A stretch of DNA of 64,000 nt. Origin: an uncultured Planctomycetales bacterium (GTDB taxonomy: Bacteria > Planctomycetota > MHYJ01 > JACPRB01). Positions 12,169 through 62,098 of the stretch are shown here, one piece after another. Positions within the stretch are counted from its first letter, which is position 1, and every line of letters begins with the position of its first letter. Both the position numbers and the translations under genes were made by a program. A model generated the notes under the pieces. That model searched no databases, was not told the DNA's origin, and saw only the letters and a program-made list of their open reading frames with translations. The stretch spans positions 5,945 through 69,944 of the forward strand of contig CAYXVY010000140.1 in assembly GCA_964468745.1 (NCBI GenBank), written 5' to 3'.

Positions 12169-12382
12169 GGTGGCAGGGCAACCTTCGACGGGCGTAAGAG
12201 CGCCCCACAATGTTCTCTCTGTTTCCTCGGCTTCCTCGGTGTTTATCCCCGTCTCGTGTGGAGCGACCGAGATGCATCGGTCTTCCTGAGATCCCCTTGG
12301 CGTTCTTGGCGGCCCATCCCGAAGGTGCGTTGCCGGGTTGCGTCTCTGCGTCAATCGCCTCCACGGCGATCCGCGCTGCGCC

Positions 12383-14284
12383 CTACGTGGCCTGCTCCGC
12401 CTCCAGCCGCCGGAAGTGCGCCATGATCTGCGCGACGCACGCATCCACGTCCGCCTTGTCCGTGCGCACGACGAGATCAGCCTTCTCCGGCGCCTCGTAT
12501 GGCGCGTCGATCCCCGTCACCGACTTCACCTGCCCAGCCCGCGCCTTCTTGTAGATCCCCTTCGGATCGCGCTCCTCACAGACCGCGAGCGGGCAGTCGA
12601 CGAACACCTCGACGAACTCCCCCTGCCGCAGCCCGCCCCGCACGCGGTCGCGGTCCGCCTTCATCGGCGAAATTAGTGCGACAAGCACGATGAGGCCGGA
12701 GTCGCCGAACAGCTTCGCCACCTCGCCCACGCGACGCACGTTCTCCGCCCTGTCTTCCTCGCTGAACCCGAGGTTCGCATTGAGGCCGTGCCGCAGATTG
12801 TCTCCGTCGAGCAGGTACGTCTGGTATCCCGCGTCGAACAGCCGCCGCTCCAGCGCGACGGCGAGCGTGGACTTCCCCGACCCCGAGAGACCCGTGAACC
12901 AGAGGACGCGCCCATGATGGCCGGTGCGCCGCGCGCGCTCGTCCCGCGAGACCTGGCCCGACACGAACGAGATGTTATGGCTCTTGACGCCCGACAACTC
13001 CGAGCGCAGGTCCTTCGTCGCGGCCGTCGAGATGATCCCTCCCCCCTCGATCCGCGCCCCCGCGTGCAGCACGAAACGGCCGAGCTGCGGCACCCCGCCG
13101 AAGTCGTCGATCGCGATCGGCCGCTGCGTCTCGATCGTGACCTCCGCGATCTGGTTGCGCGCCACCGACTGCGCCTCGACGGCACCGAGCGTCGCAACGT
13201 CCACCACCTGGTGGATCTTCACGACGCGGCAGATGACTTCCTGCGACGTGATCTTCAGCAGGTACTCCTTGCCGGGCATGAGGTCCTGTTTCCCCAGCCA
13301 GAACAGGCGCGCGTCGAATCGGTCCGCCTCGACCGGCGCGTTCTCGAGATGCGACGCGATCTGCCCGCGCTCGACGAAGAGCTGCGCGTCGAGCGTGATC
13401 CCGACCGAGTCGCCCGCGTGCGCCTCCGTCACCGGCGGCGCGCTCCAGCGCTCGATCGTCTTGACGAAGCCGGTCTTGTTCCACGGCGAGAACACGAGCT
13501 GATCCCCGACGCGAAGCGTGCCGGACTCGATGCGGCCGGCGAAGATGCGCGTCGTTTCGTTCTGGCGGTAGACGTCCTGGATCGGGAAGCGCAGCGGGCC
13601 GTCGGTGATGGGGACGCGCGACTTGAAGCCGTGCATCGCCTCGGCCACCGTCGGGCCGGTGTACCACGGCATGTCCGTCGCGCGCGCGACGACGTTCGCG
13701 CCCGCCTTCGCGGAGATCGGAATGAACACCGATTTGCCCGCACCGGTTGCCTTCAGGTAGGCCCCGTATTCCTTCTCGATGTCGCGGAAGGTCTGCTCCG
13801 ACCACCCGACGAGATCCATCTTGTTGACGAGCACGGCGACCTGGTGGAGCCCGAGCAGGCGCAGCAGCAGCGCGTGACGGCGCGACTGCTCGCGGATCCC
13901 CTCGCGCGCGTCGACGAGGACGAGCGCGGCGTCGGCCGTCGAAGCCCCCGTGATCATGTTCTTCAGGAATTCTTCGTGCCCGGGCGCGTCGATGATGACG
14001 AACGGGCGTCCGTTGACGTGCATCCAGACGTGCGCGGCGTCGATCGTGATCCCCTGGTCGCGCTCGGCCTGCAGCGCGTCGAGGGCGAACGCGAACTCGA
14101 ATTCGAGACCGCGCTTCTCGGAGATCTTCCGGATCTGTTCGAGCTTCCCTTCCGGGAGCGAACCGGTGTCGTGCATGAGCCGGCCGACGAACGTCGACTT
14201 GCCGTGGTCGACATGGCCGAGCATCACCACGCGGACCGGTGCGGTCGTGGGGGTGACGGCCTTTTCTTTGGTAGTCACGGGCAT
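12383..14284 (-). CDS. cysNC: Bifunctional sulfate adenylyltransferase subunit 1 (GTPase, CysN) fused to adenylylsulfate (APS) kinase (CysC); NodQ-like
   Basis: N-terminal GTPase motifs ([23 protein letters not shown]) of CysN/EF-Tu-like. C-terminal APS kinase ([39 protein letters not shown]-loop kinase signature). 633 aa. Confidence 0.9.
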
Positions 14285-14290
14285 GATTCT

Positions 14291-14520
14291 TCCCGAAGAC
14301 CGCGGAGCTCGCGGAGTTGCCGCAGAGTCGCTTGGGGCGCGGAGAGCTTCCTTCGAGTCCGCCGGCCCGCGCGCAGCGCGGGCGCGGTCAGGCAGATGCC
14401 GGATCCGGAACGCTCGGCCCCTCTTCGCGAGCGTTCCGGATCCGGCATCTGCCTGACTGCTCGTGCGGGCAAAGCCCGCACGCCGGCGGACCTCTGCGCC
14501 CCGAACCCCTCTGCGGTTCC
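14291..14520. repeat. Copy 1 of a ~200-230-bp GC-rich palindromic structured repeat element; it lies in the intercistronic gap between cysD and cysNC
   Basis: Perfect 27-bp inverted repeat (caggcagatgccggatccggaacgctc / gagcgttccggatccggcatctgcctg, ~14389-14455) with loop ggcccctcttcgc. Flanking arms match the second copy at 35641-35845 in inverse orientation (e.g. ctccgcgccccaagcgact, gtgcgggc..gcccgcac). Confidence 0.75.
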
Positions 14521-14557
14521 TCCGCGCGCTCTGCGGTTTGTCTTCATCTTCTGCGGG

Positions 14558-15367
14558 TTACATGTATCCGGAGGTGCGAAGACGCTCGAACGCGTCCTCC
14601 GATTCCTGGTCCTGTGCTCGGCCCGATCTCTCGCTCGTCTTCGTGCGCCGCAGCTCCTCGACGATCTCCGCGACGCTCGTGGCGGTGGACTCGATCATGC
14701 CGGTGCACGGCGCGCATCCGAGGCTGCGGTAGCGGCGTCCGTCCTTCGCGTAGTAGAGGTCGATGATCGGGATCGACTCGCGCTGGATGTACTCCCACAC
14801 GTTGAGTTCGGTCCAGTGGAGCAGCGGATGAATGCGTATGTGCGTGCCGGCCGGGAATTCGGTCTGGTACTGGTCCCAGAATTCCGGGGGCGCGTCGCCG
14901 AAGTTCCACGTGAGGTTCTTGTCGCGCGGCGAGAAGTAGCGCTCCTTCGCGCGCGTGCTCTCCTCGTCGCGGCGGATGCCGAGGAGCAGGCCGTGATACC
15001 CCTTGAGTTCGAGGACCTGCTTGAGGCCCTCCGTCTTGAGCGAGGAGCAGCAGACGACGCGGCCGAGGGTGTGGTTCATCCCGCCGGCGAGGGCGGCGAC
15101 GTTCTTGCCGACCACGAGGTCGAGCCCCAGCTCCTTCGCGACGCGGTCGCGGTACTCGATCATCGACGGGATTTTGTAGGTCGTGTCGACGTGGATGACG
15201 GGGAACGGGACGGCGCCGAAGAATGCCTTGCGGATGAGCCAGAGCAGGACGGTCGAATCCTTGCCGATCGACCAGAGGCACCCGAGGTTTTTCAGCTTCG
15301 CGCGCGCCTCGCGGATGATGTAGACGCTCTGCGCTTCGAGGGCGTCCAAGGGGTCGCGGTGAGCCAT
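14558..15367 (-). CDS. cysD: Sulfate adenylyltransferase subunit 2 (CysD; PAPS reductase-like ATP sulfurylase small subunit)
   Basis: ORF 14558..15367(-). [12 protein letters not shown] (PP-loop), LGIRRDEE, and overall CysD architecture. The ATG is preceded by TTGAGA-n17-TATAAT-n11. Confidence 0.9.
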
Positions 15368-16202: not shown

Positions 16203-16872
16203 ATCCGCACCTTCCACCTTCCAACCTCAAACCTCAAACTCCTGCCCCAGTCCCCACCCCGCCTCCGCTCCGCGCCCCACGTCACTCCGCGCTTCCTTGG
16301 CGCGCTCCGCGTTTTCTTCGGGAAGTCCCGGGATGAAGTCACCCGCGGGGTATCCGTTCGCCGCAGACCTTCCGGATTCAACGCAGAGGTCGCTGAAGGA
16401 TTTGGATGGGGGCGAAGTTTTTCCTCCACCATTCCAATGTCCTCTCGGTTACCTCGGCTGCCTCGGTGTTGTCGGAGGGGTGGGGCAGCAGGCGGAAACC
16501 TCGTGGATGACACTGGGCAATCCGAGCAAACAGAGAAGCCCATCCATGCGAGGGCGTTCCCTGCTCCTCCCCTGCGCGCTCCGCGCTTTCTTCGGATAGT
16601 CCCGGGATGAAGTCGCACGCGGAGTATCAATCCGCCTCAGAATGACCCGCACCTTCCAACTTCCAACTTCCAACTTCAAACCTCAAACGCCTCCCCCACT
16701 CCCCATCCCGCCTCCGCTCCGCGCCCCCAGCCACTCTTGTCCTCCTCAGCGGGCTCCGCGTTTTCTTCGGATAGTCCCAGGATGAAGTCGCACGCGGGGT
16801 ATCCGTTCGCCTCAGAATGACCCACACCTTCCAACTTCCAACTTCCAACCTCAAACCTTAGACTCGTCCCCC
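16203..16872. repeat. Tandem array of a ~173-bp repeat (3 full or partial copies plus a fourth partial copy running into the wzm start codon); copy 2 is interrupted by a ~185-bp insert
   Basis: Unit landmarks ccgcaccttccaac(ttccaac)n ctcaaac...ccgcctccgctccgcgcccc...gcgctccgcgttttcttcggatagtcccgggatgaagtcgcacgcggggtatccgttcgcctcagaatgacc recur at ~16203, 16563 (tail only), 16647 and 16820. Each unit has internal heptad microrepeats TTCCAAC x2-3 and CTCAAAC x2. Confidence 0.85.
16859..16864 (+). promoter_or_regulatory. TAGACT -10-like box 8 nt upstream of the wzm ATG (leaderless-type)
   Basis: ccttAGACTcgtccccc-ATG(16873) with no SD. The same TAGACT-n8/9-start arrangement occurs at fcl (47400) and gmd (about 48417). 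Confidence 0.4.
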
Positions 16873-17628
16873 ATGCCCTCCTGGTTCGAGCTCCTGCGCG
16901 CGCTCGTCGCGAAGGACTTCAAGGTCCGCTACAAGAGCACGGCGCTGGGGTTCGTGTGGTCGATCGCGAACCCGGTCATGTTCGGCCTGACGTTCTACGT
17001 GGTCTTCGAGAACGTCTTCCGCGGCGGGCAGAAGAACTTCCTCGTCTTCCTGCTCGCGGGGATGTTCCCGTGGCAGTGGTTTGCGAGCACCGTGGGCGGC
17101 GCGCCCGGCACGTTCGTCGGCAACGCGGGCCTGATCAAGAAGGTCCGGTTCCCGTGGATGCTGCTCCCGACGGCGGCCCTTGTCAGCAACCTCCTGCACT
17201 TCCTGCTGGCGCTGGCGGTGGCCGTCCCGCTCCTCGGGATGAAGGGGATCTGGCCGACACCGGTCTGGCTGATCGGCATTCCGGCCCTGCTCCTCATCCA
17301 GGGGGCGCTGACACTGGGAGTCGCGCTGCTGATCGCATCGATCAACGTCATCTTCCGCGACCTCGAGTACATCACGCAGATCGTGCTGCAGTTGGTATTC
17401 TTCCTCACGCCGATCTTCTACTCGGCAACGGCGCTGCCGGAGGGGACGCGGTCGATCCTGCGCTGGAATCCGATGTGCTACGTGATTCCGGCGTGGCAGG
17501 AGCTGGTGCTGGAGGGCCGCATGCCCTGGCAGACGGCGGGGATCGGCGCGGCGATCGCGGCGGCGACGTTGCTGATCGGCTACGGAGTCTATCGACGGAT
17601 GGAGTGGCGGCTGGCGGAGTCGCTATAG
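16873..17628 (+). CDS. wzm: ABC-2 type polysaccharide export permease (Wzm/TagG/KpsM-like)
   Basis: 251 aa, 6 predicted TM segments, ABC-2 family signature region (FVWSIANPVMFGLTFYVVF...). Confidence 0.8.
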   Translation: MPSWFELLRALVAKDFKVRYKSTALGFVWSIANPVMFGLTFYVVFENVFRGGQKNFLVFLLAGMFPWQWFASTVGGAPGTFVGNAGLIKKVRFPWMLLPTAALVSNLLHFLLALAVAVPLLGMKGIWPTPVWLIGIPALLLIQGALTLGVALLIASINVIFRDLEYITQIVLQLVFFLTPIFYSATALPEGTRSILRWNPMCYVIPAWQELVLEGRMPWQTAGIGAAIAAATLLIGYGVYRRMEWRLAESL

Positions 17629-17765
17629 AGACACATGGGTTTTCTAACGCAGAGATCGCTGATTTGTTTTGAGAGCCGGAGAGGCCCATCTCAAAGAGTT
17701 AGTCTGCGGTCTCTCCTTGTCCTCTTCTGCGCCCTCGGCGTTATTCGGGAAGATTGGGCGCGATC

Positions 17766-22106: not shown

Positions 22107-24749
22107 ATGGCGAACGAACAGTTGGGACGCGGCACCGCTGCCTGCACTATCATCGCGAAGAACTACCTCGCCCAAGCGCGCGTGCTCGCGCGTTCATTCA
22201 AGCGCGAACACCCGGACTCCGGAATGTTCGTCCTCGTCATTGACGACATTGAGGGCTTCGTCGACGCTTCGCAGGAACCGTTCGAGACGCTCACGTTAGG
22301 CGAGCTTGCGATCCCCGACGTGCAGTCGCTCTGTTTCAAATACACGGTAATGGAGCTGGCAACGGCGGTGAAGCCGTTCCTGCTGCAATTCCTGCTGGAT
22401 CGACGGGGTGTTCAACGGCTGCTGTACCTGGATCCCGACATCCAGGTGACCAGCGACCTCTCGCAGCTCTTCGAGCGGCTACTGCAGAAGTCGATCATGC
22501 TGACCCCTCACATTACACGCGCGATCGATGACGGGTCGTTCGCGAGCGAGGTCCGCATTATGCAGTCGGGGACGTACAATCTCGGTTTCATCGGGATCTC
22601 GGACACGCCGACGACGCGAGAGATGCTCGCGTGGTGGCAGAAGCGATGCCACGACCACTGCGTGAGCCGTCCAGAGCAGGGCCTGTTCGTCGACCAGAAG
22701 TGGATCGACCTCGTTCCGGGTCTCTTCGGGGATGTGGACGTGATCCGAGAGCCCGGCTACAACGTCGCGTACTGGAACCTCCATGAGCGCGAGGTCACGA
22801 TCAACTCGCCTCCCCTGGTAAACGGCCAGACGCTGCGCTTTTTTCACTTCAGCGGGTATGACCCCGACAAGCCGCACATCGTTTCGAAGCACCAGACCCG
22901 CTTCAACATGAACGAGGTGGGGGACGCGGAGCGCCTCTTCGGAGAGTACGGGCGGCGGCTCGGCGAGGAGGGATATCACGAGAGCATCCGCTGGCCCTAC
23001 TCGTTTGACGCGTTTGACAATGGCGTGCGGATCCTGCCGTTGATGCGCGACCTCTATTATCGCCTGGGCAGCCAGCGGGAGGCGTTTGGCGACCCCTTCG
23101 TAACGAGGGGCGACAACACGTTCTCTCGCTGGATGAATGCGCCTGCGCCGGGCGAGCCGCAATCTCCTCCTTATGTCTCGCACCTGGCAGCGCACTGTTG
23201 GGAGATCCGCGAGGATCTGAGACAAACGTTCCCGGAGTATCGCGGCGCGCAGCGCGCCAGTTTCCTTCGGTGGTTCGCGTCGGACGGCATCGCGTATTTC
23301 GGATTGGATTCCGTGACGGCGGAAGAGATCCGGCGTCAGGCGTCGGGCAACAGGATTCCCGAGCAAGCCATCGCTCCTCGAGCGACGGCCATTTCCAATT
23401 CGGCGCACTGCCGGGTTTGTGCGGTTCAGGCGATACTCGATCGCTGGCGCTTGCGCGCCCCGGCAAAGGAATTGGTGCTGGGGCATGGTGCGCCGAGCCC
23501 GTTGCTGCGGCTGCTGCGCTGGCTGGGAAGGCGCGGAGTGATGACCAACCTCCGGAAGAGTCTCCGTCCCTGTGCCAAACATGAGCTTCTGGTAAAGCGG
23601 CTGGGGGCGGATCTATCGGCTTCGCGCGAGAAGCGAACCTGCGTTGGGCCGTTCGGACTGAACGCGGCAGGGTATTACACGACCGAGAGCGGCATCGGCG
23701 AAGCGGCGCGGCTCATGGCGCGGAGCTTCGAGAGCGTGGAATTGCCGCACGTCCTCATCAACTTCGACCGCAGTTACGGGTTGCGACGCGACGATCGGAC
23801 GTACACGAAATTCTCGACCTCGAACCCGTACGCGATCAATCTGGTGCAGGTGAACGCGGACGAGGTTCCCGCCTTTGTCACCTTCGTGGGTGAGCAGTAC
23901 TTCGAAGGAAAGTACAACATTGGATCGTGGCTCTGGGAGTTGCCGGACTTTCCACTGGATTGGGCGGATCGGTTCGACCGTTTCGACGAGATCTGGGCGT
24001 CGAGCTGTTTCACGGCGGCGGCGCTGCGCAAGGCAACATCGCTTCCCGTCACGGTCGTGCCGTATCCGTTGGCCGCGCCTGCGCCTGTTGTTCATGGTCG
24101 CGACCACTTTGGCATCGCAGAGGACGCTTTCGTCTTCCTCTTCATATTCGATTTCATGAGCGTTTTCGAGCGCAAGAATCCGTTGGCGACGATCGAGGCC
24201 TTCCTGCGTGCGTTTCCCGGGCGCCGCGACGTAAGGCTCGTGATCAAGTGCTCGAATTCGCGGATCGACCCCGAGAATGCAGCTCGCCTCAGACAGGCGG
24301 CGGAGCGCGGACTTGTGCAGATCATTGACGGGTATCTGTCGCGCACCGAAGTAAACGATCTGGTTGCCTGCTGCGACGCCTACGTCTCGCTCCATCGTTC
24401 CGAGGGATTCGGCCTGACGCTCGCGGAGGCGATGACGCGCGGGAAGCCAGTCATTGGCACGGATTTCTCCGGCAACACGGACTTCATGAACGCCTCGAAC
24501 AGCTTTCCAGTGCGCTGCAAGGTCATCGAGCTAACGCGGGACGTGGGACCTTACCGCCGAGGCTCCCGCTGGGCGGAGGCAGACGTCGACCATGCGGCAG
24601 ACCGGATGCGCAACGTGTTGGACGATCGCGAAAGTTCCGCCGCCATCGGCACCGCGGCCGCTGCATATATGGCCGAACACCATAGCCCTACGGCGGTGGG
24701 TGCCACTATCGACGTCCGACTTAGGGCGATCCAAAAGCACATGAGATGA
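22107..24749 (+). CDS. Two-domain glycosyltransferase: N-terminal GT-A-like nucleotide-sugar transferase domain (DxD: YLDPDIQV) + C-terminal GT4 domain
   Basis: N-terminus TIIAKNYLAQARVLARSFK...YLDPDIQV is GT-A-like. C-terminus ...VSLHRSEGFGLTLAEAMTRGKPVIGTDFSGNTDFM is GT4. Confidence 0.7.
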   Translation: MANEQLGRGTAACTIIAKNYLAQARVLARSFKREHPDSGMFVLVIDDIEGFVDASQEPFETLTLGELAIPDVQSLCFKYTVMELATAVKPFLLQFLLDRRGVQRLLYLDPDIQVTSDLSQLFERLLQKSIMLTPHITRAIDDGSFASEVRIMQSGTYNLGFIGISDTPTTREMLAWWQKRCHDHCVSRPEQGLFVDQKWIDLVPGLFGDVDVIREPGYNVAYWNLHEREVTINSPPLVNGQTLRFFHFSGYDPDKPHIVSKHQTRFNMNEVGDAERLFGEYGRRLGEEGYHESIRWPYSFDAFDNGVRILPLMRDLYYRLGSQREAFGDPFVTRGDNTFSRWMNAPAPGEPQSPPYVSHLAAHCWEIREDLRQTFPEYRGAQRASFLRWFASDGIAYFGLDSVTAEEIRRQASGNRIPEQAIAPRATAISNSAHCRVCAVQAILDRWRLRAPAKELVLGHGAPSPLLRLLRWLGRRGVMTNLRKSLRPCAKHELLVKRLGADLSASREKRTCVGPFGLNAAGYYTTESGIGEAARLMARSFESVELPHVLINFDRSYGLRRDDRTYTKFSTSNPYAINLVQVNADEVPAFVTFVGEQYFEGKYNIGSWLWELPDFPLDWADRFDRFDEIWASSCFTAAALRKATSLPVTVVPYPLAAPAPVVHGRDHFGIAEDAFVFLFIFDFMSVFERKNPLATIEAFLRAFPGRRDVRLVIKCSNSRIDPENAARLRQAAERGLVQIIDGYLSRTEVNDLVACCDAYVSLHRSEGFGLTLAEAMTRGKPVIGTDFSGNTDFMNASNSFPVRCKVIELTRDVGPYRRGSRWAEADVDHAADRMRNVLDDRESSAAIGTAAAAYMAEHHSPTAVGATIDVRLRAIQKHMR

Positions 24750-24778
24750 ACCGGCGCGATGTCTGAGCCTGCCGGCGA

Positions 24779-25945
24779 CTACCGTCTGAGCCGCAGCAGA
24801 GCTCGCGTTGTTTCCCCCTCATGGACTGCTTCGCTGAGGATCTCCATGCGGAGTCCAATCGACGCTCCGAGTTTCTTGAAGGCATTCAGATTCCACTCGA
24901 CAAGTGCGCGCGTTCCGCGGGTTTCAGAGACATCCTTCGCACAAAATATATCGGCGAGAATGCGACCTCCATCTCCCATGCACCTCGTGGCGTCAGTTAG
25001 GAGTCCGCGAGACTCATGCGGATAGGTGTGCGTTAGGACGCTCATGAAGAGCACAAAATCGAAGGGTCCTCCAACAATTTCGAGTGGCAGACTGGCGTCC
25101 ATATTCCGCGTGAAGGAAAATGTGGAGCGACTGTAGCGCTGTCTGCAGAAAGCCACAGGCTTTTCCGCGATATCTGTACCGCAGTAGCGCCCCGTCGAAT
25201 CCAAGAAGCTGTGTAGTGGTCGTGTTAACAGCCCTGTTCCGCAACCCACATCGAGTACGCGGGAATTGCGCGCCAATCCAAATTCCATCAACATGCGCAA
25301 CTTGTCGTCGCCCAGTGTGACGAACTGTTCCTCGGACGGAACTCCGACGACCGACCAGTAGTCGCGAGTAAAGTCGGCGTTTTCCCAGACAGTGGCATAT
25401 TCGCCAAAATCGCCAGGCCGCGCTCCAGCGATTTCAACTGTGATCGGTGAGACTCTTGAGCCCCGATCCTTGAACCAGGTAATGTTTTCGTGAACTAAGT
25501 CAAATTCGAGCGTACACAGACTTGGAGTGGCAGGCGCCTGAACTGTCGCGCGAACTAAGACCTCTGCGCCGGAATCAATATCGGTTGGAAAATCGGTCCG
25601 AATCCCGTCATAGACAAGTACTTTCCCGTCTTGTCGCAGCCAATGGTATGCCAGCCGAACGGCATTTGGTTTGTTTCCAGCAGGCCACCGATGGGGAGTA
25701 GCGTTACGAACGCGCACGGGCACTTGAACAATCTCTCCTTCGTGCAGCTTGGCAGGTGCCTCTAGTACGTGGATTTGGGCGCGGTATGCCACGCTGGGCA
25801 TGCTGTCCAGTGGCAAGGTGGGGTCGCCCAACTGCAGTTCTCCTTTTTCTGAGTCCGACTTAGTATCTGAGTTTTGCAGCAGATGCAAGAAGCGATTCGC
25901 CGAGAGCCTTCGAATCTCGCGAGCTATTTCTTCGCCGGTTGACAT
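24779..25945 (-). CDS. Class I SAM-dependent methyltransferase (C-terminal) with a ~190-aa N-terminal domain of unknown function
   Basis: VLDVGCGTGLL (SAM-binding motif I) and downstream motifs (FDFVLFMSVLTH). Noticeably AT-richer than the background. Confidence 0.7.
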   Translation of the reverse strand: MSTGEEIAREIRRLSANRFLHLLQNSDTKSDSEKGELQLGDPTLPLDSMPSVAYRAQIHVLEAPAKLHEGEIVQVPVRVRNATPHRWPAGNKPNAVRLAYHWLRQDGKVLVYDGIRTDFPTDIDSGAEVLVRATVQAPATPSLCTLEFDLVHENITWFKDRGSRVSPITVEIAGARPGDFGEYATVWENADFTRDYWSVVGVPSEEQFVTLGDDKLRMLMEFGLARNSRVLDVGCGTGLLTRPLHSFLDSTGRYCGTDIAEKPVAFCRQRYSRSTFSFTRNMDASLPLEIVGGPFDFVLFMSVLTHTYPHESRGLLTDATRCMGDGGRILADIFCAKDVSETRGTRALVEWNLNAFKKLGASIGLRMEILSEAVHEGETTRALLRLRR

Positions 25946-25982
25946 AGGATCGACGCGCCCGATAAGCTCCGCTGGCGAACGA

Positions 25983-27293
25983 ATGGATAACCACTTGCAT
26001 CGCGTTGAGATTCAGCACGTTGCCCCGACCACCGTTGATCCCTTGGTGCTCTGGGGGGCAGGGCTGAACTCGCCCACGCTTGGTACGAGCGGCAGTTACT
26101 CAATTGGAATTGCAGGTTGGGTATTACCGCGCGCGGGACAAAGGGCTAAAGTCCAGTTCACTTGTGGACGCCGAATCCTCAGTGAACTAGAAATTGACCG
26201 GTGGCGACCTGACGTGCTGAAGCACTTCCCCGATATTCCCGGTGCCGAGCATTGCGGATTCTACGGGTCGCTACGGACGGTAGAACTCCCTAGTCAGTTC
26301 GATATCCAGATCTCCATCAAGTTGGAAGGCCACGGATTGCTTCCCATGACGACCATTCGCGGCTGTCGCAATTCCATCGTTCCTGCGCCGGTGGAATCAC
26401 TGCGTCCAATCTTTATTACATCGTTAGGGCGCTGCGGCTCGACCTATCTCGCCCTGCTGCTAAAAAACCATCCCGAGATAGTAGTTGCTGGCCCCTTCCC
26501 GTACGAAAACCACGTACTCCCTTACTGGGTTTCAGTTTTCGAGACCCTCTCAGCTCCACAGTCTTTCTTAAAGCAGCTCGCCTCGCCCCTGCGTGGACAC
26601 TATTGGTGGCTGGGCGATGCGCGCGACTCAGTAGAGACCTACCTTGAGCGCTTTCCCAACGTAGATCTCGTTGGTGGCGACGCGGTTGACGCAGCCGCAA
26701 CGTTCTGTCGTGCTCGCGTTTACGCGTACGATGCACAACTTGCAGCACGCGTCGGCAAGCCGAAGGCTGTTTATTTCGCCGAGAAGTTACCTCCGTCCGG
26801 CCCCAACCCCCTCGCGGAACAACTGTTCCCCACGACGCGTGAAATCGTACTTCTTCGCGATCCCCGAGACATTATCGCGTCCGTGCTCGCGTTCAATCGA
26901 AAGCGGGGTTTCGCATCGTTTAGCCGCGAACTCGTTCAGAGCGATCTAGAGTATGTGGCTTCCATTCGACATCAGTGGCTCGCGCTGGCCGTCGGATGGC
27001 GGAACCGAAAGACAAATGCGATAGTTGTACGTTACGAAGATCTCATGGAGAAACGTGACGAGACCGTCCGAAGCGTCTTTGGTGCATTGAATCTGTCAGC
27101 TTCTGATGACGTGCTTCGACACGTGGTGGAAGCCTCCGCACAGGAAGATGTCGCTCTTCAAGAAGCTCATATGACATCAACAAGCACTGAAAGTTCGATT
27201 GGCAGATGGAAGCGGGAGCTTCCAAGTGAGCTCCAGAAAGCCTGCAGGGACACCCTAGGTGACGCGCTGGAGGAGTTCGGTTACGCAGTGTAA
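25983..27293 (+). CDS. Sulfotransferase family protein (PAPS-dependent)
   Basis: 5'-PSB motif ITSLGRCGSTYLALLL and 3'-PB motif LLRDPRDIIASV. Track ORF 25749..27293 overlaps the convergent methyltransferase gene by ~200 bp. Starting at the internal Met (MDNHLH..., 25983) removes the overlap and the low-complexity N-terminus. Confidence 0.75.
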   Translation: MDNHLHRVEIQHVAPTTVDPLVLWGAGLNSPTLGTSGSYSIGIAGWVLPRAGQRAKVQFTCGRRILSELEIDRWRPDVLKHFPDIPGAEHCGFYGSLRTVELPSQFDIQISIKLEGHGLLPMTTIRGCRNSIVPAPVESLRPIFITSLGRCGSTYLALLLKNHPEIVVAGPFPYENHVLPYWVSVFETLSAPQSFLKQLASPLRGHYWWLGDARDSVETYLERFPNVDLVGGDAVDAAATFCRARVYAYDAQLAARVGKPKAVYFAEKLPPSGPNPLAEQLFPTTREIVLLRDPRDIIASVLAFNRKRGFASFSRELVQSDLEYVASIRHQWLALAVGWRNRKTNAIVVRYEDLMEKRDETVRSVFGALNLSASDDVLRHVVEASAQEDVALQEAHMTSTSTESSIGRWKRELPSELQKACRDTLGDALEEFGYAV

Positions 27294-27412
27294 CCGCGCT
27301 TACCACGCTTTACTGGCATATCGAAAGTCAACGCCTCCGGACTTCGACGCGCGTACGCGCACCATTTCCTGATTCTGTCTCCGGTCTCCTGAATTCTGTA
27401 TCCTCTCCGCAC

Positions 27413-28150
27413 ATGCGCCACCGGTCCGAAGTCGCCTACTTCCAGCCCACCAGCTGGACTGTCGTCGAAGAAGCGCAGGACAAGGCCGGACCCGCGGCGC
27501 GTGCCGCCTACGAACGGCTCGCCGCCGGCTACTGGAAACCCACCTTCTTCTTCCTCCGCAAGCGCGGGCTCCGGCGCGAGAACGCCGAAGACGCCACCCA
27601 GGACTTCTTCGCCTACTTCTTCGACCGCGACTTCATCCAGAACGCCGACCCCGCCAAGGGGAAGTTCCGCACCTTCATCATCGCCCACCTCGAAAACTTC
27701 CTCGCCAACCAGCGGCGTAACGCCCACACCGTGCGACGCGGCAAAGGCACCCACACCATCAGCGCCGACTTCGGCGATGCCGAGCAGGAACTCTCCGGCA
27801 TGCCCGCCTCCATCGAAACCGCCGACGCCGTCTTCCTCCGCTCGTGGGCCCTCGAAACGATGGCCAAGGCGTGGGAGCTGCTCCGCCTCAAGATGATCGA
27901 GAGCGGCGAAGGCCACTACTTCGGCCCCCTCCACACCTTCTTCAACAACGTGAAGGACCGGCCCACCCGCGCCCAGCTCGAGGAACAGCTCGGCCTGTCC
28001 TACAAACAAGTCGACCACCTCATCGACGGGACGCGCAAGCAGTTCAAGGATCAGCTCCGCCTCGTCGTCCGTCCCACGGTCGAAAACGAGAGCGAAGTGA
28101 AGGCGGAAATCGTCGCACTCTTCGACGCCCTGGGCGCGACTCAGCCGTAA
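27413..28150 (+). CDS. ECF-type RNA polymerase sigma factor (sigma-70 regions 2 and 4)
   Basis: Region 2 (ENAEDATQDFFAYFF...FRTFIIAHLENFLANQRR) and a region 4 HTH (RAQLEEQLGLSYKQVDHLIDGTRKQFKDQL). 245 aa. Confidence 0.8.
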   Translation: MRHRSEVAYFQPTSWTVVEEAQDKAGPAARAAYERLAAGYWKPTFFFLRKRGLRRENAEDATQDFFAYFFDRDFIQNADPAKGKFRTFIIAHLENFLANQRRNAHTVRRGKGTHTISADFGDAEQELSGMPASIETADAVFLRSWALETMAKAWELLRLKMIESGEGHYFGPLHTFFNNVKDRPTRAQLEEQLGLSYKQVDHLIDGTRKQFKDQLRLVVRPTVENESEVKAEIVALFDALGATQP

Positions 28151-28273
28151 CCGGCCACCCGTCGCGGCACACCCGCGCCCGCACGCGCGTACCCCGATCA
28201 GACAATCCGCACTTTCCGCGCGCGGATTCGCACTTTCGTCCGGGAAGTCGCCCCAAACCTTACCTAAGGGAGT

Positions 28274-28774
28274 ATGAACGCAAACGTAAACAAGAAGGAC
28301 GGGGGCGAAACGACGCCGAAGGGCGTCCTGCCGCGGCAGGACGATGCACCGGCTTCCCAGCGCACCACCGTGGCGCGGCACGACGCTGCACCGGAATCCC
28401 AGCGCGCCTCCGTGGCGGGGCACGGCATTGCACCGGCTTCCCAGCGCACCACCGTGACGCGGCACGACAGCACATCGGCTTCCCAGCGCACTTCCGTGCC
28501 GAGTCACGACACTGCATCGGCATCTCGACGCACCTCCATGGCGGGGCATGGCACTGCATCGGCAACCCGGCGCACTAGCGTGGCGGGGCACGGCGCTGCA
28601 CTGGCCACCCGGCGCACTTCCGTGCCGCGGCACGACACTGCACCGGCATCCCGATGCACCTCCGTGACGCGGCAGGACGTCGGGATCGCGATCCTCACCC
28701 ACTTCGATCGAGGACCTCCTGTGCATCCATCGCTCTCACGCAGTAACGCGACGGGGAGTGTTTCCCCGTCGTGA
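28274..28774 (+). CDS. Repetitive Ser/Thr/Arg/His-rich protein (8 x 14-aa repeats) encoded directly downstream of the ECF sigma factor; strand assignment tentative
   Basis: AGGGAG-like SD before the ATG at 28274. Body is 8 near-identical 14-residue units (APASQRTTVARHDA...). The complementary strand is also open (PRHGGALGSRC... repeats), so strand is not certain. Confidence 0.35.
   Translation: MNANVNKKDGGETTPKGVLPRQDDAPASQRTTVARHDAAPESQRASVAGHGIAPASQRTTVTRHDSTSASQRTSVPSHDTASASRRTSMAGHGTASATRRTSVAGHGAALATRRTSVPRHDTAPASRCTSVTRQDVGIAILTHFDRGPPVHPSLSRSNATGSVSPS
28346..28681. repeat. 42-bp tandem repeat x8
   Basis: Units gcaccggcttcccagcgcaccaccgtggcgcggcacgacgct and variants are repeated 8 times head-to-tail (28346, 28388, ... 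28640). Confidence 0.9.
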
Positions 28775-34540: not shown

Positions 34541-35512
34541 ATGCGACTCGATCGCAGCCCCCGCCGCGCGTCGAAGGTCTTGACACCCCGCACGGGCACG
34601 GTTACCGTCACCCCCGCGCACGTGGGGAATGGAATAGTGAATCGGCCGTCGGTCGCCGTCGTTCTCACCTCCTACAACGGCAAAGACGACACGCTGGAGT
34701 GCCTGCGCTCCCTGGCTGCCCTCACCTACCCGAACTACTCCGTCATCGTCATGGACGACGCCTCCGGCGACCGCACCGCCGACACCGTCGCGCGCGACTT
34801 CCCCAGCGTCCGCGTCGTCCACAACCCGAAGAATCTCGGCTATATCCGCAACCTCAACCGCGGCGTCATGCTGTCGATGGACGCCGACTACATTCTCATC
34901 CTCAACAACGACCTGACGGTCGCGCCTGACCTGATCGACCGACTCGTCGACGTCGCGGAACGCGACCCCAGGATCGCGCTCTGTGGTCCGGAAATGTATC
35001 GCTATCACGAACCCGACACGCTGTGGGCCGCGGGCGGCGACGTTTCGCCTTGGACCGGGCGTTCCTACCATCACGAGACGAACGGTCTCGCGGGACCCGC
35101 CGATGTGGGCTACATCCCGGGCGCGGCCATGCTCGTCCGGCGCGATGCCTTCGAGCAGATCGGTTTCTTCGAAGCCGCGTACCATGCGTACTTCGAGGAA
35201 GTGGACTTCGCGTTCCGTCTGCGCCGCAGGGGCCACCGCGTCGTCTGCGTCCCGGACGCGCGCATCTGGCACAAGGTCAGCGCGACGATGACGCGCGTGC
35301 TCTCCCCCGAGCAGCGCAAGTTCTACGGCGTGCGCAATCGCCGCTGGGTGCTGCGCAGCCATGCGTCCCCCTGGAAACGCCCGCTGCTCCACGCCATCGA
35401 CGCCGTCGCGAGCGCCTTCCACTTCGCGTACACCATGGCGCGCTCCCCCGGCGAGGCCGGCGCCGTCTTCCGCGGCTACTGCGCCGGGTGGCGGCCAGTC
35501 ACACCCAGCTGA
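34541..35512 (+). CDS. Glycosyltransferase family 2 (real start probably the GTG near 34637)
   Basis: VAVVLTSYNGKDDTLECLRSL...VIVMDDASGDRT...FEEVDFAFRLRRRGHRV. Confidence 0.75.
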   Translation: MRLDRSPRRASKVLTPRTGTVTVTPAHVGNGIVNRPSVAVVLTSYNGKDDTLECLRSLAALTYPNYSVIVMDDASGDRTADTVARDFPSVRVVHNPKNLGYIRNLNRGVMLSMDADYILILNNDLTVAPDLIDRLVDVAERDPRIALCGPEMYRYHEPDTLWAAGGDVSPWTGRSYHHETNGLAGPADVGYIPGAAMLVRRDAFEQIGFFEAAYHAYFEEVDFAFRLRRRGHRVVCVPDARIWHKVSATMTRVLSPEQRKFYGVRNRRWVLRSHASPWKRPLLHAIDAVASAFHFAYTMARSPGEAGAVFRGYCAGWRPVTPS

Positions 35513-35640
35513 TCTCTCAGGCCCTTTTAACGCCGAGAGCGCAGACGCGCTGCAGAAGAGAGCGCAGGTTTGTGGTGGAACGTGGGGCGTGGTCCTTCCG
35601 GAACTTCCGGACAACCGCTGAGCGCGCAGGGGCAAGCAGA

Positions 35641-35845
35641 GGGGTTCCGGGCGCTGAGGTGTCCGCCGCCGTGCGGGCAACGCCCGCACGAGCGGCCACG
35701 CAGAAGCCGTTTCCGAAACGCCCAGCCCTTCTTCGGGAGCGTTTCGGAAACGGCTTCTGCGTGGCCGCGCCCGCGCTACGCGCGGGCCGGCGGACCCGAA
35801 AGAAGCTCTCCGCGCCCCAAGCGACTCCTGTCCTCCTCTGCGTTC
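35641..35845. repeat. Copy 2 of the ~200-bp palindromic structured repeat element; lies between the convergent GT2 and GT2-GT-C genes
   Basis: Perfect 22-bp inverted repeat (gcagaagccgtttccgaaacgc / gcgtttcggaaacggcttctgc, ~35700-35760), loop ccagcccttcttcggga. Arms ggggttccgggcgctgaggtgtccgccgccgtgcgggcaacgcccgcac and gcgcgggccggcggacccgaaagaagctctccgcgccccaagcgact match copy 1 (inverted). Confidence 0.75.
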
Positions 35846-35893
35846 TCTGCGGTTGTCCGGCAGGCGAGCGGAGATTTGATGCCCCGCGTGTCT

Positions 35894-37990: not shown

Positions 37991-38374
37991 GAGTTCATGA
38001 GTTATAACCAAGCTCCACTGCCGACACCGTCTTGCCCGATCAACACAGAGGAATCCGAGGACACCGAGAAGATTGGGATGGGGTAGTTACGCCCGCTTGG
38101 AGGATACCTCCGGGCTGCGATATTGCGCGCTGCAATGGGATCATCGGACGCGACACCGAGATATCGGAGGGAACCGAGAAGAGGCCGTGGGGGGATCGCA
38201 GACCGCCTCGGTCGCCACGGTGACACGAAGATCTGCCGGCTCCCACGACGAGGAGTGAATGTCCCCTCCAAAAGCCTTCTCGGTTGACTCGGATGACTCG
38301 GTGTTCATCCGCGTCCTGCCGCGCTCATACTCACGTTCTCTGATTTCCGGTCTTCGCATCGGTATAGTGTCTCG

Positions 38375-51639: not shown

Positions 51640-51719
51640 GTCGGGGCGGGTCGCGCGGAAGCCGCCGGTCGGAAGTCTTGCCGCACGTCCGTCGCGTCCC
51701 TATAATCGCCCCCGACGAC

Positions 51720-52073
51720 ATGCCCACATACGACTACGGGTGTGCCGCGTGCGGGCACGTCTTCGAGGTGTTTGAGAAGATCAACGATGGAGGAACGAAG
51801 GCCTGTCTGAAGTGCGGCAAGAGGCGCGCCAAGCGGCGCATCGGCGCCGGCGCGGGCGTGATCTTCAAGGGAAGCGGCTTCTACGCCACCGACTCCAAGG
51901 AGTCCTCGAAGGCCCCCTCCACCGGCGGGGACAAGAAGAAGACGACGCGAAAGACGACCGAGACCAAGACCGAAACAAAGACCGAGACTAAGCCCGAGAC
52001 GAAGACCGAGGCCAAGTCCGAGGCAAAGACCGAGTCGAAACCCGAGAAAACAGAAAAGACGGAGAAACGATGA
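51720..52073 (+). CDS. FmdB-family zinc-ribbon protein with Lys/Thr/Glu-rich repetitive C-terminal tail
   Basis: MPTYDYGCAACGHVFEV...CLKCG (CxxC...CxxC), then KKKTTRKTTETKTETKTETKPETKTEAKSEAKTESKPEKTEKTEKR. TATAAT at 51701-51706 sits 13 nt upstream of the ATG (CCCTATAATCGCCCCC module) with TTGCCG -35. Confidence 0.6.
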   Translation: MPTYDYGCAACGHVFEVFEKINDGGTKACLKCGKRRAKRRIGAGAGVIFKGSGFYATDSKESSKAPSTGGDKKKTTRKTTETKTETKTETKPETKTEAKSEAKTESKPEKTEKTEKR

Positions 52074-58588: not shown

Positions 58589-58700
58589 TGAGTTCTGGGT
58601 TTTGAGTCGTGAGTCGGACCGGCCTCTGATCACTCATAACTCAAAACTCATAACTCGCTGCGTCGTGTATACTCAGACCCCACTTATCTAGGAGAGCGTC

Positions 58701-60080: not shown

Positions 60081-60122
60081 CGGATTGTGTTCTGGGGGCG
60101 GTTTTTGTCAGGAGGCGGACTC

Positions 60123-60989: not shown

Positions 60990-61010
60990 GCGGGATCTCT
61001 GGGGAGGACT

Positions 61011-61856: not shown

Positions 61857-62098
61857 TCGAAACGGAGATCAACACGCCCCCGGTTCCACCGAGCCGGGGG
61901 CTTTTTTGTTGGCCGAGCAAACAGAGAAGTAGGAAAACACCGAGAAAGCCGAGTCATCCGAGAGGCGATCTTGGATGGGACGGGAGAACTCCCCAAGTCC
62001 TCTCGGTTTTCTCGGATCTCTCGGTGTTGATCCGCTCGGGTTCCTCTTTCTCCCTCTATTCTCTCACGCCGCAGTTTACAGCCTCTCGGAGGTGCCTC

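What the first reader, a model, noticed from the sequence alone, without database searches (positions are those of the whole stretch)
14291..14520. Palindromic ~200-bp repeat element with a perfectly paired but sequence-divergent central stem (copy 1 of 2)
Two copies (14291-14520 and 35641-35845) share conserved GC-rich arms. Shared arm sequences include ggggttcgggcgc.gaggt.cgcc.gcgtgcgggc..gcccgcacgagc and gcgcgggccggcggac.cgaa.gaagctctccgcgccccaagcgact. The central stems are completely different between copies (27 bp: caggcagatgccggatccggaacgctc; 22 bp: gcagaagccgtttccgaaacgc), yet each is a perfect inverted repeat around a similar loop (gcccctcttcg / gcccttcttcgg). Perfect pairing despite sequence divergence indicates selection on secondary structure (RNA hairpin or DNA cruciform). 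The arms occur in inverse orientation, and the whole element is itself a rough palindrome, as in MITE/REP-like elements. Both copies lie in intergenic DNA (cysD/cysNC gap; convergent gene ends).
Basis: seen in the sequence. Interest (0 to 1): 0.7.

Follow-up and report, generated by a model that had tools for sequence, protein, structure and literature searches.

The report
Palindromic intergenic repeat with flipped hairpin loop
Two inverted copies of a roughly 265-bp, non-coding, self-complementary repeat sit between genes of a polysaccharide gene cluster, and it looks like an ordinary kind of bacterial "junk" repeat (MITE/REP-like) whose perfect central hairpin is probably kept perfect by DNA copying between its two arms, not by selection on an RNA.

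Summary
The repeat is real and larger than reported. Copy 1 is about 14285-14557 and fills the whole cysD/cysNC gap. Copy 2 is about 35604-35863, between convergent glycosyltransferase genes. The copies are inverted, 84% identical and gapless across the centre. Each folds into an imperfect outer stem, an 8-bp junction stem, two small GC hairpins and a 30-bp perfect central hairpin (z = -14 and -12).

The central stems are homologous and the same length, 21 of 27 pairs identical. The six differing pairs are all changed on both sides, with no mismatch and no G-U pair. The 11-nt central loop is inverted relative to the flanks (13/17 identity flipped, 3/17 direct). Both strands fold equally well, and the central stem diverges as fast as the outer arms (22% against 16-24%). 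These features favour DNA-level arm-to-arm copying (template switching) over RNA-level selection.

The junction and small-hairpin stems are invariant. The roughly 55-nt arm module also occurs alone at least three times. More distant relatives have cysD and cysNC abutting. A 92%-identical relative carries a different palindrome at that site.

There is no Rfam match, no transposase in the window and no further copies in public scans. Verdict: a new family of a known kind (MITE/REPIN/BIME-like).

The parts
14285..14557 (-). Element copy 1. It fills the entire 273-nt gap between the cysD stop codon and the cysNC start codon. The orientation is given for the asymmetric flanks and matches copy 2 on +.
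   Evidence: Fold -201.1 kcal/mol, z = -14.5.
35604..35863 (+). Element copy 2, between the 3' ends of two convergent glycosyltransferase genes.
   Evidence: Fold -194.1 kcal/mol, z = -12.2.
14384..14460 (.). Copy 1 central hairpin. The 27-bp aligned core of the arms is 14387-14413 and 14431-14457; the loop region is 14414-14430 (GCCCCTCTTCG on +).
   Evidence: I4. No mismatch and no G-U in the 27-bp core.
35692..35768 (.). Copy 2 central hairpin. The arms are 35695-35721 and 35739-35765; the loop region is 35722-35738 (GCCCTTCTTCG on +). This is the same absolute orientation as in copy 1, so the loop is flipped relative to the flanks.
   Evidence: I8; (loop identity 3/17 direct, 13/17 flipped).
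14462..14482 (.). Copy 1 small hairpin 'hpL' (C GTGCGGGC nnn GCCCGCAC G). The stem is invariant between copies.
   Evidence: helix 4: 9 pairs, none vary.
35670..35690 (.). Copy 2 small hairpin 'hpL'. The triloop is AAC against TTT in the same frame of reference (flipped GTT gives 2/3 matches, direct 0/3).
14365..14383 (.). Copy 1 small hairpin 'hpR' (GCCCGCGC nnn GCGCGGGC). The stem is invariant.
   Evidence: helix 6: 8 pairs, none vary.
35769..35787 (.). Copy 2 small hairpin 'hpR'.
14357..14364 (.). Copy 1 junction stem, one half (GTCCGCCG on +). It pairs with 14484-14491 (CGGCGGAC) and closes the four-way junction.
   Evidence: helix 3: 8 pairs, none vary.
14484..14491 (.). Copy 1 junction stem, other half.
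35661..35668 (.). Copy 2 junction stem, one half (GTCCGCCG). It pairs with 35788-35795.
35788..35795 (.). Copy 2 junction stem, other half (CGGCGGAC).
14298..14356 (-). Copy 1 outer arm module 'R' (CTCCGCGCCCCAAGCGACTC...CTCCGCGGTCTTCGGGAAG). It ends 4 nt before the cysNC ATG and contains the 26-nt block that is identical in both copies.
14492..14537 (-). Copy 1 outer arm 'L', an imperfect inverted copy of arm R (three CGCAGAG/CGCGGAG motifs).
35614..35660 (+). Copy 2 outer arm 'L'.
35796..35854 (+). Copy 2 outer arm 'R'.
16268..16335 (+). Solo arm module (no core) inside the mosaic repeat region 16204-16872.
   Evidence: D10; (nhmmer E = 0.001).
16717..16781 (+). Solo arm module. An orthologous fragment is present in the relative L112 (640-686).
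   Evidence: D10; (E = 1.3e-5).
17700..17753 (+). Degenerate solo arm module just upstream of the ABC-transporter ATPase gene.
   Evidence: E = 0.054, weak; read by eye.
14558..15367 (-). cysD (sulfate adenylyltransferase subunit 2), the gene upstream of copy 1.
   Evidence: PAPS_reduct, 3e-40.
12383..14284 (-). cysNC (GTPase subunit fused to APS kinase), the gene downstream of copy 1.

Best explanation
The element is a member of a lineage-restricted family of non-coding, mosaic palindromic intergenic repeats. It belongs to the same general kind as bacterial MITEs, REPINs and BIMEs.

Anatomy (shown):
- Two imperfect, roughly 55-nt inverted arm modules. Each carries three CTCYGCG motifs.
- An invariant 8-bp junction stem (GTCCGCCG/CGGCGGAC).
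- Two invariant small GC hairpins with 3-nt loops.
- A variable 30-bp perfect central hairpin.

Mechanism (inferred):
1. The element, or its modules, spread or were exchanged at the DNA level. Copy 1 was inserted between cysD and cysNC, which abut or overlap in more distant relatives.
2. The invariant junction and small hairpins are the sequence-specific part. They are probably the recognition site of whatever protein moves or binds the element.
3. The central hairpin behaves like a REPIN spacer: only self-complementarity and length are kept. Its perfection is maintained by intra-element copying of one arm from the other (replication template switching or hairpin-templated repair). That process turns each single substitution into a double one or erases it, and it occasionally flips the loop. 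Base-pair-by-base-pair selection on an RNA is not required.
4. Where it is co-transcribed (copy 1, inside the cysD-cysNC operon), the RNA would fold so that the first bases after the cysD stop codon pair with the bases just upstream of the cysNC start. The 273-nt insert then keeps stop and start close together. A ribosome terminating on cysD would melt the base helix and free the cysNC initiation region. The 30-bp perfect duplex would also be a plausible RNase III substrate or a barrier to exonucleases.
For: Real, repeated and structured:
- (84% identity; z = -14 and -12).

Non-coding:
- A six-frame translation of both copies found no homologue among 5.8 billion proteins.
- No Rfam family reaches its threshold; only generic long-hairpin miRNA models match, far below gathering.

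Insertion or turnover at the cysD/cysNC site:
- In relatives with cysD 78-82% identical at the DNA level, the conserved CysN sequence starts 5 nt after the cysD stop and the called genes overlap by 38 nt.
- In a relative with cysD 92.7% identical, homology to the window stops exactly at the cysD stop codon. An unrelated, AT-richer hairpin follows (z = -4.3).

Mosaic, modular nature:
- The arm module occurs 4 times in the two elements and at least 3 more times alone (D10, 58, 67, 68).
- A second palindromic family with CCGAG x3 arms lies at 61936-62028, with solo arms at 12207, 16434 and 38269 (D11).

DNA-level maintenance of the central stem:
- 6 of 6 differing pairs are changed on both sides, with none broken and no G-U.
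- The loop is inverted relative to the flanks: 13/17 identity flipped against 3/17 direct. The hpL triloop is also better explained flipped.
- Both strands fold equally: -209.7 and -201.1 kcal/mol for copy 1, -194.1 and -193.8 for copy 2, with 1-5 G-U among about 104 pairs.
- The central arms diverge 22%, the same as the imperfect outer arms at 16-24%.
- Template switching is documented to give multiple compensatory changes and loop inversion in one event (PMC8794818).

Conserved core:
- There are 0 substitutions in 16 junction-stem positions and 34 small-hairpin stem positions. At about 20% divergence, roughly 10 would be expected.

Base helix joining the cysD stop to the cysNC start:
- Seen in the minimum-free-energy structure.
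Against: - Only two full copies are known, both inside one 64-kb gene cluster, so genome-wide copy number is unknown.
- No target-site duplication is visible and the element ends are blurred.
- None of about 40 window proteins scanned with Pfam is a transposase, RAYT, integrase or reverse transcriptase.
- Exact-word scans of 185,579 species genomes, JGI/ENA metagenomes and IMG/VR gave only chance hits. The host genome itself is absent from those collections, so this says little about copy number.
- With two sequences, the rate comparison and the 'invariant core' rest on small numbers.
- Recent gene conversion between the two copies could also explain the invariant blocks.
- The coupling and RNase III roles are inference from a predicted fold only.
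Confidence: 0.55

Rival explanations
1. The element is a functional structured RNA, and selection on RNA secondary structure keeps the pairs. Possible roles are an intercistronic processing or stabilising element, a U-tract-less terminator, or an sRNA.
For: - All 88 predicted pairs form in both copies, and 6 central pairs covary.
- Folding energies are extreme.
- Copy 1 is almost certainly co-transcribed within cysD-cysNC.
- Copy 2 lies where a bidirectional terminator would be expected.
- Co-transcribed palindromic repeats such as Correia elements are known to bind RNase III and alter expression of neighbouring genes (PMC2649163).
Against: - There is no strand asymmetry and essentially no G-U pairs.
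- The loop is inverted between copies.
- The small hairpins have 3-nt loops on perfect palindromes. From my own knowledge, this looks more like DNA palindromes than selected RNA hairpins.
- The stem evolves as fast as the unconstrained arms.
- No U-tract follows the hairpins on the transcribed strand and there is no sigma-70 promoter.
- No Rfam family matches.
- The two copies have unrelated contexts.
- More distant relatives lack any gap at this site, and a close relative has an unrelated hairpin there.
Confidence: 0.2
2. The element is a DNA-level regulatory or architectural site specific to this polysaccharide gene cluster. The invariant small palindromes (GTGCGGGC-N3-GCCCGCAC and GCCCGCGC-N3-GCGCGGGC) would be operators for a dimeric protein, or cruciform-forming sites.
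For: - The small palindromes and the junction are invariant while the rest diverges about 20%.
- Both full copies lie in one sulfated-polysaccharide cluster.
- The arms carry three similar heptamers.
Against: - One copy lies between convergent 3' ends, where no promoter is expected.
- The element is 265 bp with a 30-bp variable hairpin, which is far more than an operator needs.
- Solo arms and a second palindromic family elsewhere in the window point to general repeat families.
- No regulator gene is adjacent.
Confidence: 0.1
3. The two copies are the inverted ends of a 21-kb composite mobile or invertible segment (14.5-35.9 kb).
For: - The two copies are in inverted orientation 21 kb apart.
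- G+C is lower (58-62%) in part of the enclosed segment.
Against: - cysD lies inside the segment and cysNC outside it. Yet the order ABC transporter / cysD / cysNC is the same in distant relatives that lack the element.
- No recombinase was found among the Pfam-scanned proteins of the segment.
- At 84% identity the copies are poor substrates for homologous recombination.
Confidence: 0.03
4. The match is chance similarity, or the two central palindromes are unrelated to each other.
For: None beyond the GC-rich background.
Against: - BLAST E = 2.5e-50 between the copies.
- The alignment is gapless through the centre.
- A 26-nt identical block has 0 expected chance matches.
Confidence: 0.01

Closest known systems
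REPINs (REP doublets forming hairpins) mobilised by RAYT transposases; Pseudomonas, E. coli (PMC3116915)
   Same: - Short, non-coding and extragenic.
- Highly conserved small GC-rich palindromes flank a less conserved spacer.
- In that spacer only length and hairpin-forming capacity are kept, and compensatory changes are common.
- An alternative 'clover' fold exists in which each small palindrome forms its own hairpin.
- Solo remnants occur.
- No target-site duplication.
   Different: - This element is about three times longer (265 bp against about 70-110).
- It has additional 55-nt outer arm modules and an 8-bp junction stem.
- The two small hairpins are not inverted copies of each other. hpR is hpL with its arms swapped, so they cannot pair with each other in a nested fold.
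- No conserved GTAG-type 5' motif.
- No RAYT was seen in the window. The rest of the genome could not be tested.
Bacterial MITEs that fold into long hairpins when co-transcribed: Correia/CREE of Neisseria (PMC2649163), ERIC/IRU of enterobacteria (own knowledge), reviewed in PMC2229807 and PMC3184786
   Same: - 100-300 bp and non-coding.
- Terminal inverted repeats around a conserved core.
- Inserted in intergenic DNA, including inside operons.
- Insertion polymorphism between related genomes.
- The RNA hairpin can be bound or cut by RNase III and change expression of neighbouring genes.
   Different: - No target-site duplication was found here (CREE has TA).
- The ends are blurred.
- The internal structure is a four-way junction with three hairpins, not a single imperfect hairpin.
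- There is no sequence similarity to any of these families.
Mosaic repeat clusters: BIMEs of E. coli, RIMEs of rhizobia (own knowledge)
   Same: - Built from a few short modules (here arm, junction, small palindromes, central hairpin).
- The modules recur in different combinations and orientations. Examples are the solo arms at 16268, 16717 and 17700, and the mosaic region 16204-16872.
   Different: - The module sequences are unrelated.
- Module order is fixed in the two full copies.
- Binding of IHF, gyrase or Pol I, as known for BIMEs, was not tested.
Template-switch mutations in hairpins (PMC8794818, PMC5453318); from own knowledge, recurrent hairpin-loop inversions in chloroplast spacers
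   Same: - Several 'compensatory' changes appear with no intermediates.
- The loop sequence is inverted between homologous hairpins.
- The stems are perfect Watson-Crick.
   Different: - This is a mutational process, not an element family. It explains how the central stem stays perfect, not what the element is.
- The 11-nt loop and 30-bp stem are longer than most documented cases.

Membership tests
MITE (miniature inverted-repeat transposable element) | Small (<~500 bp), with no coding capacity | tested here: met
   The element is about 265 bp. A six-frame translation has no homologue. There is no Pfam-bearing ORF, and the flanking genes are accounted for.
MITE (miniature inverted-repeat transposable element) | Terminal inverted repeats | tested here: met
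   The outer arms of about 50 nt are imperfect inverted copies. Self reverse-complement identity is 68% over 255-280 nt, and the arm alignment is A4.
MITE (miniature inverted-repeat transposable element) | Target-site duplication flanking each copy | tested here: not met
   No direct repeat is seen at either copy's borders (read by eye). The flanking bases continue the palindrome instead.
MITE (miniature inverted-repeat transposable element) | Multiple dispersed copies in the genome, with presence/absence polymorphism | tested here: inconclusive
   There are two full copies and at least 3 solo arms in 64 kb. The site is empty in more distant relatives and differently filled in a 92.7% relative. 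The rest of the host genome is not available.
MITE (miniature inverted-repeat transposable element) | A parent insertion sequence with the same ends, encoding a transposase | not testable with these tools
   None of about 40 window proteins scanned has a transposase domain.
REPIN / REP | Two REP palindromes in inverted orientation that pair with each other across a spacer | tested here: not met
   hpL is GTGCGGGC-N3-GCCCGCAC and hpR is GCCCGCGC-N3-GCGCGGGC. The arms are swapped, not reverse complements, so the two cannot pair in a nested fold (read from sequence).
REPIN / REP | Conserved ends with a variable, self-complementary spacer that shows compensatory changes | tested here: met
   The small-hairpin and junction stems have 0 changes. 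The central stem has 6 pairs changed on both sides. Compare PMC3116915.
REPIN / REP | An associated RAYT (Y1 transposase) gene in the genome | not testable with these tools
   None found in the window. The genome is not available.
Known structured RNA family (Rfam) | A match at or above a family's gathering score | tested here: not met
   There are 0 matches at gathering over the whole window. At E <= 10 only miRNA-precursor and other long-hairpin models match, far below threshold and on both strands.
Intrinsic (Rho-independent) terminator | A GC-rich hairpin followed by a U-tract on the transcribed strand | tested here: not met
   No terminator-like site coincides with the main hairpins. The only two hits are small, lie on the + strand near copy 1, and are not on the cysD-cysNC (-) strand.
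Retron msr/msd | A structured non-coding region with a long msd hairpin immediately next to a reverse-transcriptase gene | tested here: not met
   The neighbours are cysD, cysNC and glycosyltransferases. No RT domain was found among the scanned window proteins.
Integron attC site | An imperfect palindrome of 57-141 bp bounded by RYYYAAC / GTTRRRY core sites, in a cassette array near intI | tested here: not met
   The element is 265 bp. Its ends (…GACAACCGC / GCGGTTGTC…) do not fit the core sites. There is no integrase and no cassette array.

The most novel reading that the evidence does not exclude
The element belongs to an undescribed class of mobile or self-propagating DNA. Its active form would be a folded single strand or an extruded cruciform with a conserved four-way junction. 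An unknown structure-specific enzyme (a Y1/HUH-type or junction-resolving protein) would recognise the invariant junction stem and the two small hairpins. The central hairpin would be re-synthesised arm-from-arm during each round, as in flip/flop hairpin transfer. That would explain the always-perfect stems, the neutral-rate divergence and the inverted loops.
Probability: 0.1. Interest if true: 0.65.

Novelty: new member of a known kind. Interest (0 to 1): 0.3.

Why it matters
- It is a clean small example of a general caution. Fully compensated stems between repeat copies are not by themselves evidence of selection on RNA structure. A flipped loop, a lack of G-U pairs and strand symmetry point to DNA-level arm-to-arm copying instead.
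- It adds a repeat family from a poorly sampled, GC-rich lineage. The nearest CysD outside the 92.7% relative is only 79% identical.
- It shows a palindromic insert splitting a normally overlapping, translationally coupled gene pair (cysD/cysNC). The insert's self-pairing may keep the stop and start codons functionally adjacent.
- If the invariant four-way-junction core proves to be a recognition site for a dedicated enzyme, it could lead to a new mobilisation system. Nothing seen here requires that.

Tried and rejected
Searches for more copies:
1. An exact 20-mer from the most conserved block was scanned against one genome per species (GTDB). It gave 2 hits, both chance, inside unrelated sequence.
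2. An 18-mer was scanned against metagenome contigs. It gave 108 loci. BLAST and nhmmer with the whole element found no true homologue among them.
3. Two patterns were scanned against IMG/VR. One gave a chance hairpin and the other gave nothing.
4. Both copies were translated in six frames and searched for spurious ORFs called on other copies. Nothing was found.
5. A homologue search with the GT2 gene next to copy 2 looked for an orthologous empty or filled site. No homologue is closer than 45% identity, so copy 2's site could not be compared.
6. Logan contigs were used to try to extend beyond the window. One gene start was not on record, and the other gained only about 500 bp.

Identity of the host:
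- The run, assembly and sample accessions tried (SRR9952630, SRR9952632, JBFOMR, GCA_040960765, 3300019487) were not found in any paper. The lineage remains unknown.

Families considered and rejected:
- Rfam families, intrinsic terminator, retron, attC, riboswitch upstream of cysNC, and the ends of a composite or invertible 21-kb segment. Reasons are given in the membership table and under the rival explanations.

Not done:
- No covariance model was built. With two near-identical sequences it would add nothing beyond nhmmer and BLAST.
Full report
**1. The observation**

Both stretches exist and are related.
- The repeat finder reports them as the two longest inverted-repeat pairs of the window: 14289-14415 with 35737-35863 (127 nt, 81%), and 14431-14502 with 35650-35721 (72 nt, 78%).
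- MAFFT of copy 1 (reverse complement) against copy 2 gives 84% mean column identity. There is no gap from the left small hairpin through the centre to the right arm.
- BLASTN gives E = 2.5e-50 between the copies, and nhmmer gives E about 1e-85 to 1e-88.
- A 26-nt block (GAAGCTCTCCGCGCCCCAAGCGACTC) is identical in both copies, with 0 matches expected by chance.

**2. Anatomy**

Each copy, on either strand, folds into the same multibranched structure:
- a long imperfect outer stem made of two roughly 55-nt arms;
- an 8-bp junction stem (GTCCGCCG/CGGCGGAC);
- a small hairpin, GTGCGGGC-N3-GCCCGCAC;
- a roughly 30-bp perfect central hairpin with an 11-nt loop;
- a second small hairpin, GCCCGCGC-N3-GCGCGGGC.

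Energies are -201.1 kcal/mol (copy 1, - strand) and -194.1 kcal/mol (copy 2, + strand). Shuffle means are about -128 and -131, giving z = -14.5 and -12.2. The opposite strands fold as well (-209.7 and -193.8), and only 1-5 of about 104 pairs are G-U. The element is therefore a DNA-level palindrome with no strand asymmetry.

**3.

The central stems are not 'completely different', and they are not 27 against 22 bp.
- They are homologous, equal in length, and identical at 21 of the 27 aligned pairs.
- The six differing pairs (U-A/C-G, G-C/C-G, U-A/A-U, G-C/U-A, A-U/U-A, G-C/A-U) are all changed on both sides. None is broken and none is G-U.
- Sliding the 3' partners by 1-3 columns drops pairing from 100% to 34-51%.
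- The loops look alike on the + strand of both copies although the flanks are inverted. Relative to the flanks, the 17-column loop region is 3/17 identical direct and 13/17 identical flipped.
- The triloop of the left small hairpin (TTT against AAC) also matches better flipped (GTT, 2/3) than direct (0/3).

**4. Divergence pattern**

| Region | Differences |
|---|---|
| Outer arms | 16% and 24% |
| Each central-stem arm | 22% |
| Junction stems | 0 of 16 |
| Small-hairpin stems | 0 of 34 (all differences are in their loops) |

The central stem changes as fast as the least constrained part of the element, yet it never shows a mismatch. The junction and small hairpins are conserved in sequence. 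At about 20% divergence, roughly 10 changes would be expected in those 50 positions.

**5. Context**

- cysD is at 14558-15367(-) and cysNC at 12383-14284(-). Copy 1 fills the whole 273-nt gap between them.
- GT2 (34541-35512, +) converges on GT2-PMT_2 (35894-38011, -). Copy 2 lies between their 3' ends.
- The window is one large cluster for a sulfated polysaccharide. It holds many glycosyltransferases, three sulfotransferase-domain proteins, an ABC-2 exporter, GDP-mannose dehydratase and epimerases, a priming sugar transferase and a flippase-like protein.
- None of about 40 proteins scanned has a transposase, RAYT, integrase or reverse-transcriptase domain.
- There is no sigma-70-like promoter, and no hairpin-plus-U-tract terminator coincides with the main hairpins.
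- No Rfam family matches at gathering. At E <= 10 only miRNA-precursor-type long-hairpin models match, on both strands and far below threshold.

**6. Relatives**

The exact CysD is on record only from an NCBI contig of 79,874 bp and from Logan assemblies of SRR9952630. The Logan contig is identical through copy 1.
- The nearest other genome is NCBI GCA_040960765.1, contig JBFOMR010082213.1 (locus L112). Its cysD is 92.7% identical at the DNA level.
- Homology to the window stops exactly at the cysD stop codon.
- What follows in L112 is an unrelated, AT-richer sequence that itself forms a long hairpin (z = -4.3). The contig ends 140 nt later.
- In the next relatives (cysD 78-82% DNA identity; L113-L117), the conserved CysN sequence [10 protein letters not shown] begins 5 nt after the cysD stop, and the called genes overlap by 38 nt.
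- In the window, about 315 nt separate the same two landmarks, and the first 14 codons of cysNC are not alignable with those of the relatives.
- The gap is therefore derived, and its content differs between two genomes about 92% identical. That argues for insertion or turnover of palindromic DNA at this site.
- No close homologue of the GT2 gene next to copy 2 exists in the database, so that site could not be compared.

**7. Modules**

- The roughly 55-nt arm (CTCYGCGCCCC...CTCYGCG...CTCYGCGGTT..CGGGAAG) occurs four times in the two elements. It occurs alone at 16268, 16717 and, degenerate, at 16561 and 17700 (D10, 58, 67, 68).
- Fragments of the arm lie at the orthologous place in L112.
- The gap 16204-16872 is a mosaic of these arms and other repeats (D6/D8, 8).
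- A second palindromic family, with arms made of three CCGAG motifs, lies at 61936-62028, with solo arms at 12207, 16434 and 38269 (D11, 35, 51).
- A third palindrome lies at 58590-58656.
- The genome is thus rich in modular intergenic palindromes, in the manner of BIMEs and RIMEs.

**8. Interpretation**

The element is best read as a new family of the known kind 'non-coding palindromic intergenic repeat' (MITE/REPIN/BIME-like).

The closest described behaviour is that of REPINs. They have conserved small palindromes around a less conserved spacer. [quoted passage not shown] They also describe an alternative clover fold (PMC3116915).

Membership is not established:
- The two small hairpins are arm-swapped versions of each other, not inverted copies.
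- There is no GTAG-type motif.
- No RAYT could be looked for outside the window.
- For MITE membership, the inverted ends, small size and lack of coding capacity are met. No target-site duplication is seen, and copy number is unknown.

**9. How the perfect stem is kept**

The rival is a mutational mechanism. Template switching between the two arms of a hairpin during replication produces several 'compensatory' changes in one event and inverts the loop when the copied stretch spans it. A compensatory change together with a loop inversion was proposed as the strongest signature of that process (PMC8794818).

Here there are six fully compensated pairs, an inverted 11-nt loop, probably an inverted triloop, no G-U pairs, strand symmetry, and a stem diverging at the same rate as the imperfect arms. 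Together these are what arm-to-arm copying predicts. Each new substitution is either erased or doubled, so pairs change at about the neutral per-site rate. This is not what slow, two-step compensatory evolution of an RNA predicts. I therefore favour DNA-level maintenance, with the caveat that two sequences cannot settle it.

**10. Likely consequence where transcribed (inference)**

In the predicted fold of the cysD-cysNC transcript, the bases right after the cysD stop (UAA-CCCG-C-AGA) pair with those just before the cysNC start (UCU-U-CGGG-AAGAAUC-AUG).
- A self-pairing insert thus keeps stop and start close.
- A ribosome terminating on cysD would open this helix and free the cysNC initiation region. 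This may be why a 273-nt palindrome is tolerated between genes that overlap in relatives.
- A 30-bp perfect RNA duplex is also a plausible RNase III substrate, as shown for Correia elements (PMC2649163).

None of this was tested.

**11. Limits**

- Public scans for more copies gave only chance hits: a 20-mer against one genome per species, an 18-mer against metagenomes, and two patterns against viral contigs.
- The host genome is not in those collections, so copy number and distribution remain unknown.
- A six-frame protein search found nothing.
- The host lineage could not be named.

**12. Verdict**

The finding is real but ordinary in kind. The inference of selection on structure is not required. 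The most instructive detail is the flipped loop combined with fully compensated stems. Interest is 0.3, and the novelty class is a new member of a known kind.

Noticed in passing
window 16204-16872: A 670-nt gap upstream of the ABC-2 permease gene is a mosaic of repeats. It holds three copies of a roughly 175-nt unit (16208-16367, 16565-16703 and 16740-16878 overlap as families D6/D8), CCTTCCAACTTCCAAC-type low-complexity runs, solo arm modules, and one arm of the CCGAG family. Two of the units carry a conserved 12-codon mini-ORF at the same place: MKSHAEYQSASE* at 16607 and MKSHAGYPFASE* at 16782.
   Followed up: partly
window 61936-62028; solo arms at 12207-12244, 16434-16471, 38269-38306: A second palindromic repeat family. 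Its arms consist of three CCGAG/CTCGG motifs spaced 9-11 nt apart (AACACCGAGAAAGCCGAGTCATCCGAGAGG / CCTCTCGGTTTTCTCGGATCTCTCGGTGTT). It has the same architecture as the arms of the studied element but a different motif.
   Followed up: partly
window 58590-58656: An AT-richer 25-bp inverted repeat (GAGTTCTGGGTTTTGAGTCGTGAGT / ACTCATAACTCAAAACTCATAACTC) lies in the 112-nt gap between an 860-aa protein gene and a DUF1318 gene.
   Followed up: no
window 28332-28678: A tandem array of 8.3 copies of a 42-nt unit (78% matches; higher-order period 126) lies in a 681-nt gap between two + strand genes. An ORF on the - strand spans it (27281-28726) but has no Pfam match. It has no spacers, so it is not CRISPR-like.
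   Followed up: partly
L112 2377-2516 (NCBI GCA_040960765.1, JBFOMR010082213.1): In a relative with cysD 92.7% identical, the DNA after the cysD stop is a different, AT-rich long hairpin (CATTGAGTCATT...AATGACTCAATG core, z = -4.3). The contig ends inside the gap, as expected if a repeat broke the assembly.
   Followed up: partly
window 14243-14284 (first 14 codons of cysNC): The N-terminus of CysNC ([14 protein letters not shown]) is not alignable with that of the relatives (MPSNVSAPAATCSA). In the relatives that stretch is encoded inside the 3' end of cysD. The start of the gene seems to have been rebuilt when the gap arose.
   Followed up: partly
window 60087-64000: At least four tandem paralogous genes share 62-76% identical stretches of 158-300 nt. 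The one scanned (60087-60989) has HEAT repeats. The first two end in lysine/glutamate-rich tails (repeat families D2, D3, D5, D13).
   Followed up: no
window 51678-52073: A small protein has a zinc-ribbon-like N-terminus (CxxC...CxxC) and a C-terminal tail of TETK/TEAK repeats encoded by a 12-nt periodic repeat (51929-52059).
   Followed up: no
window 24000-28000: G+C drops to 58-59%, against about 65-68% elsewhere. This region of the cluster encodes a methyltransferase and a sulfotransferase, and may have been acquired separately.
   Followed up: no
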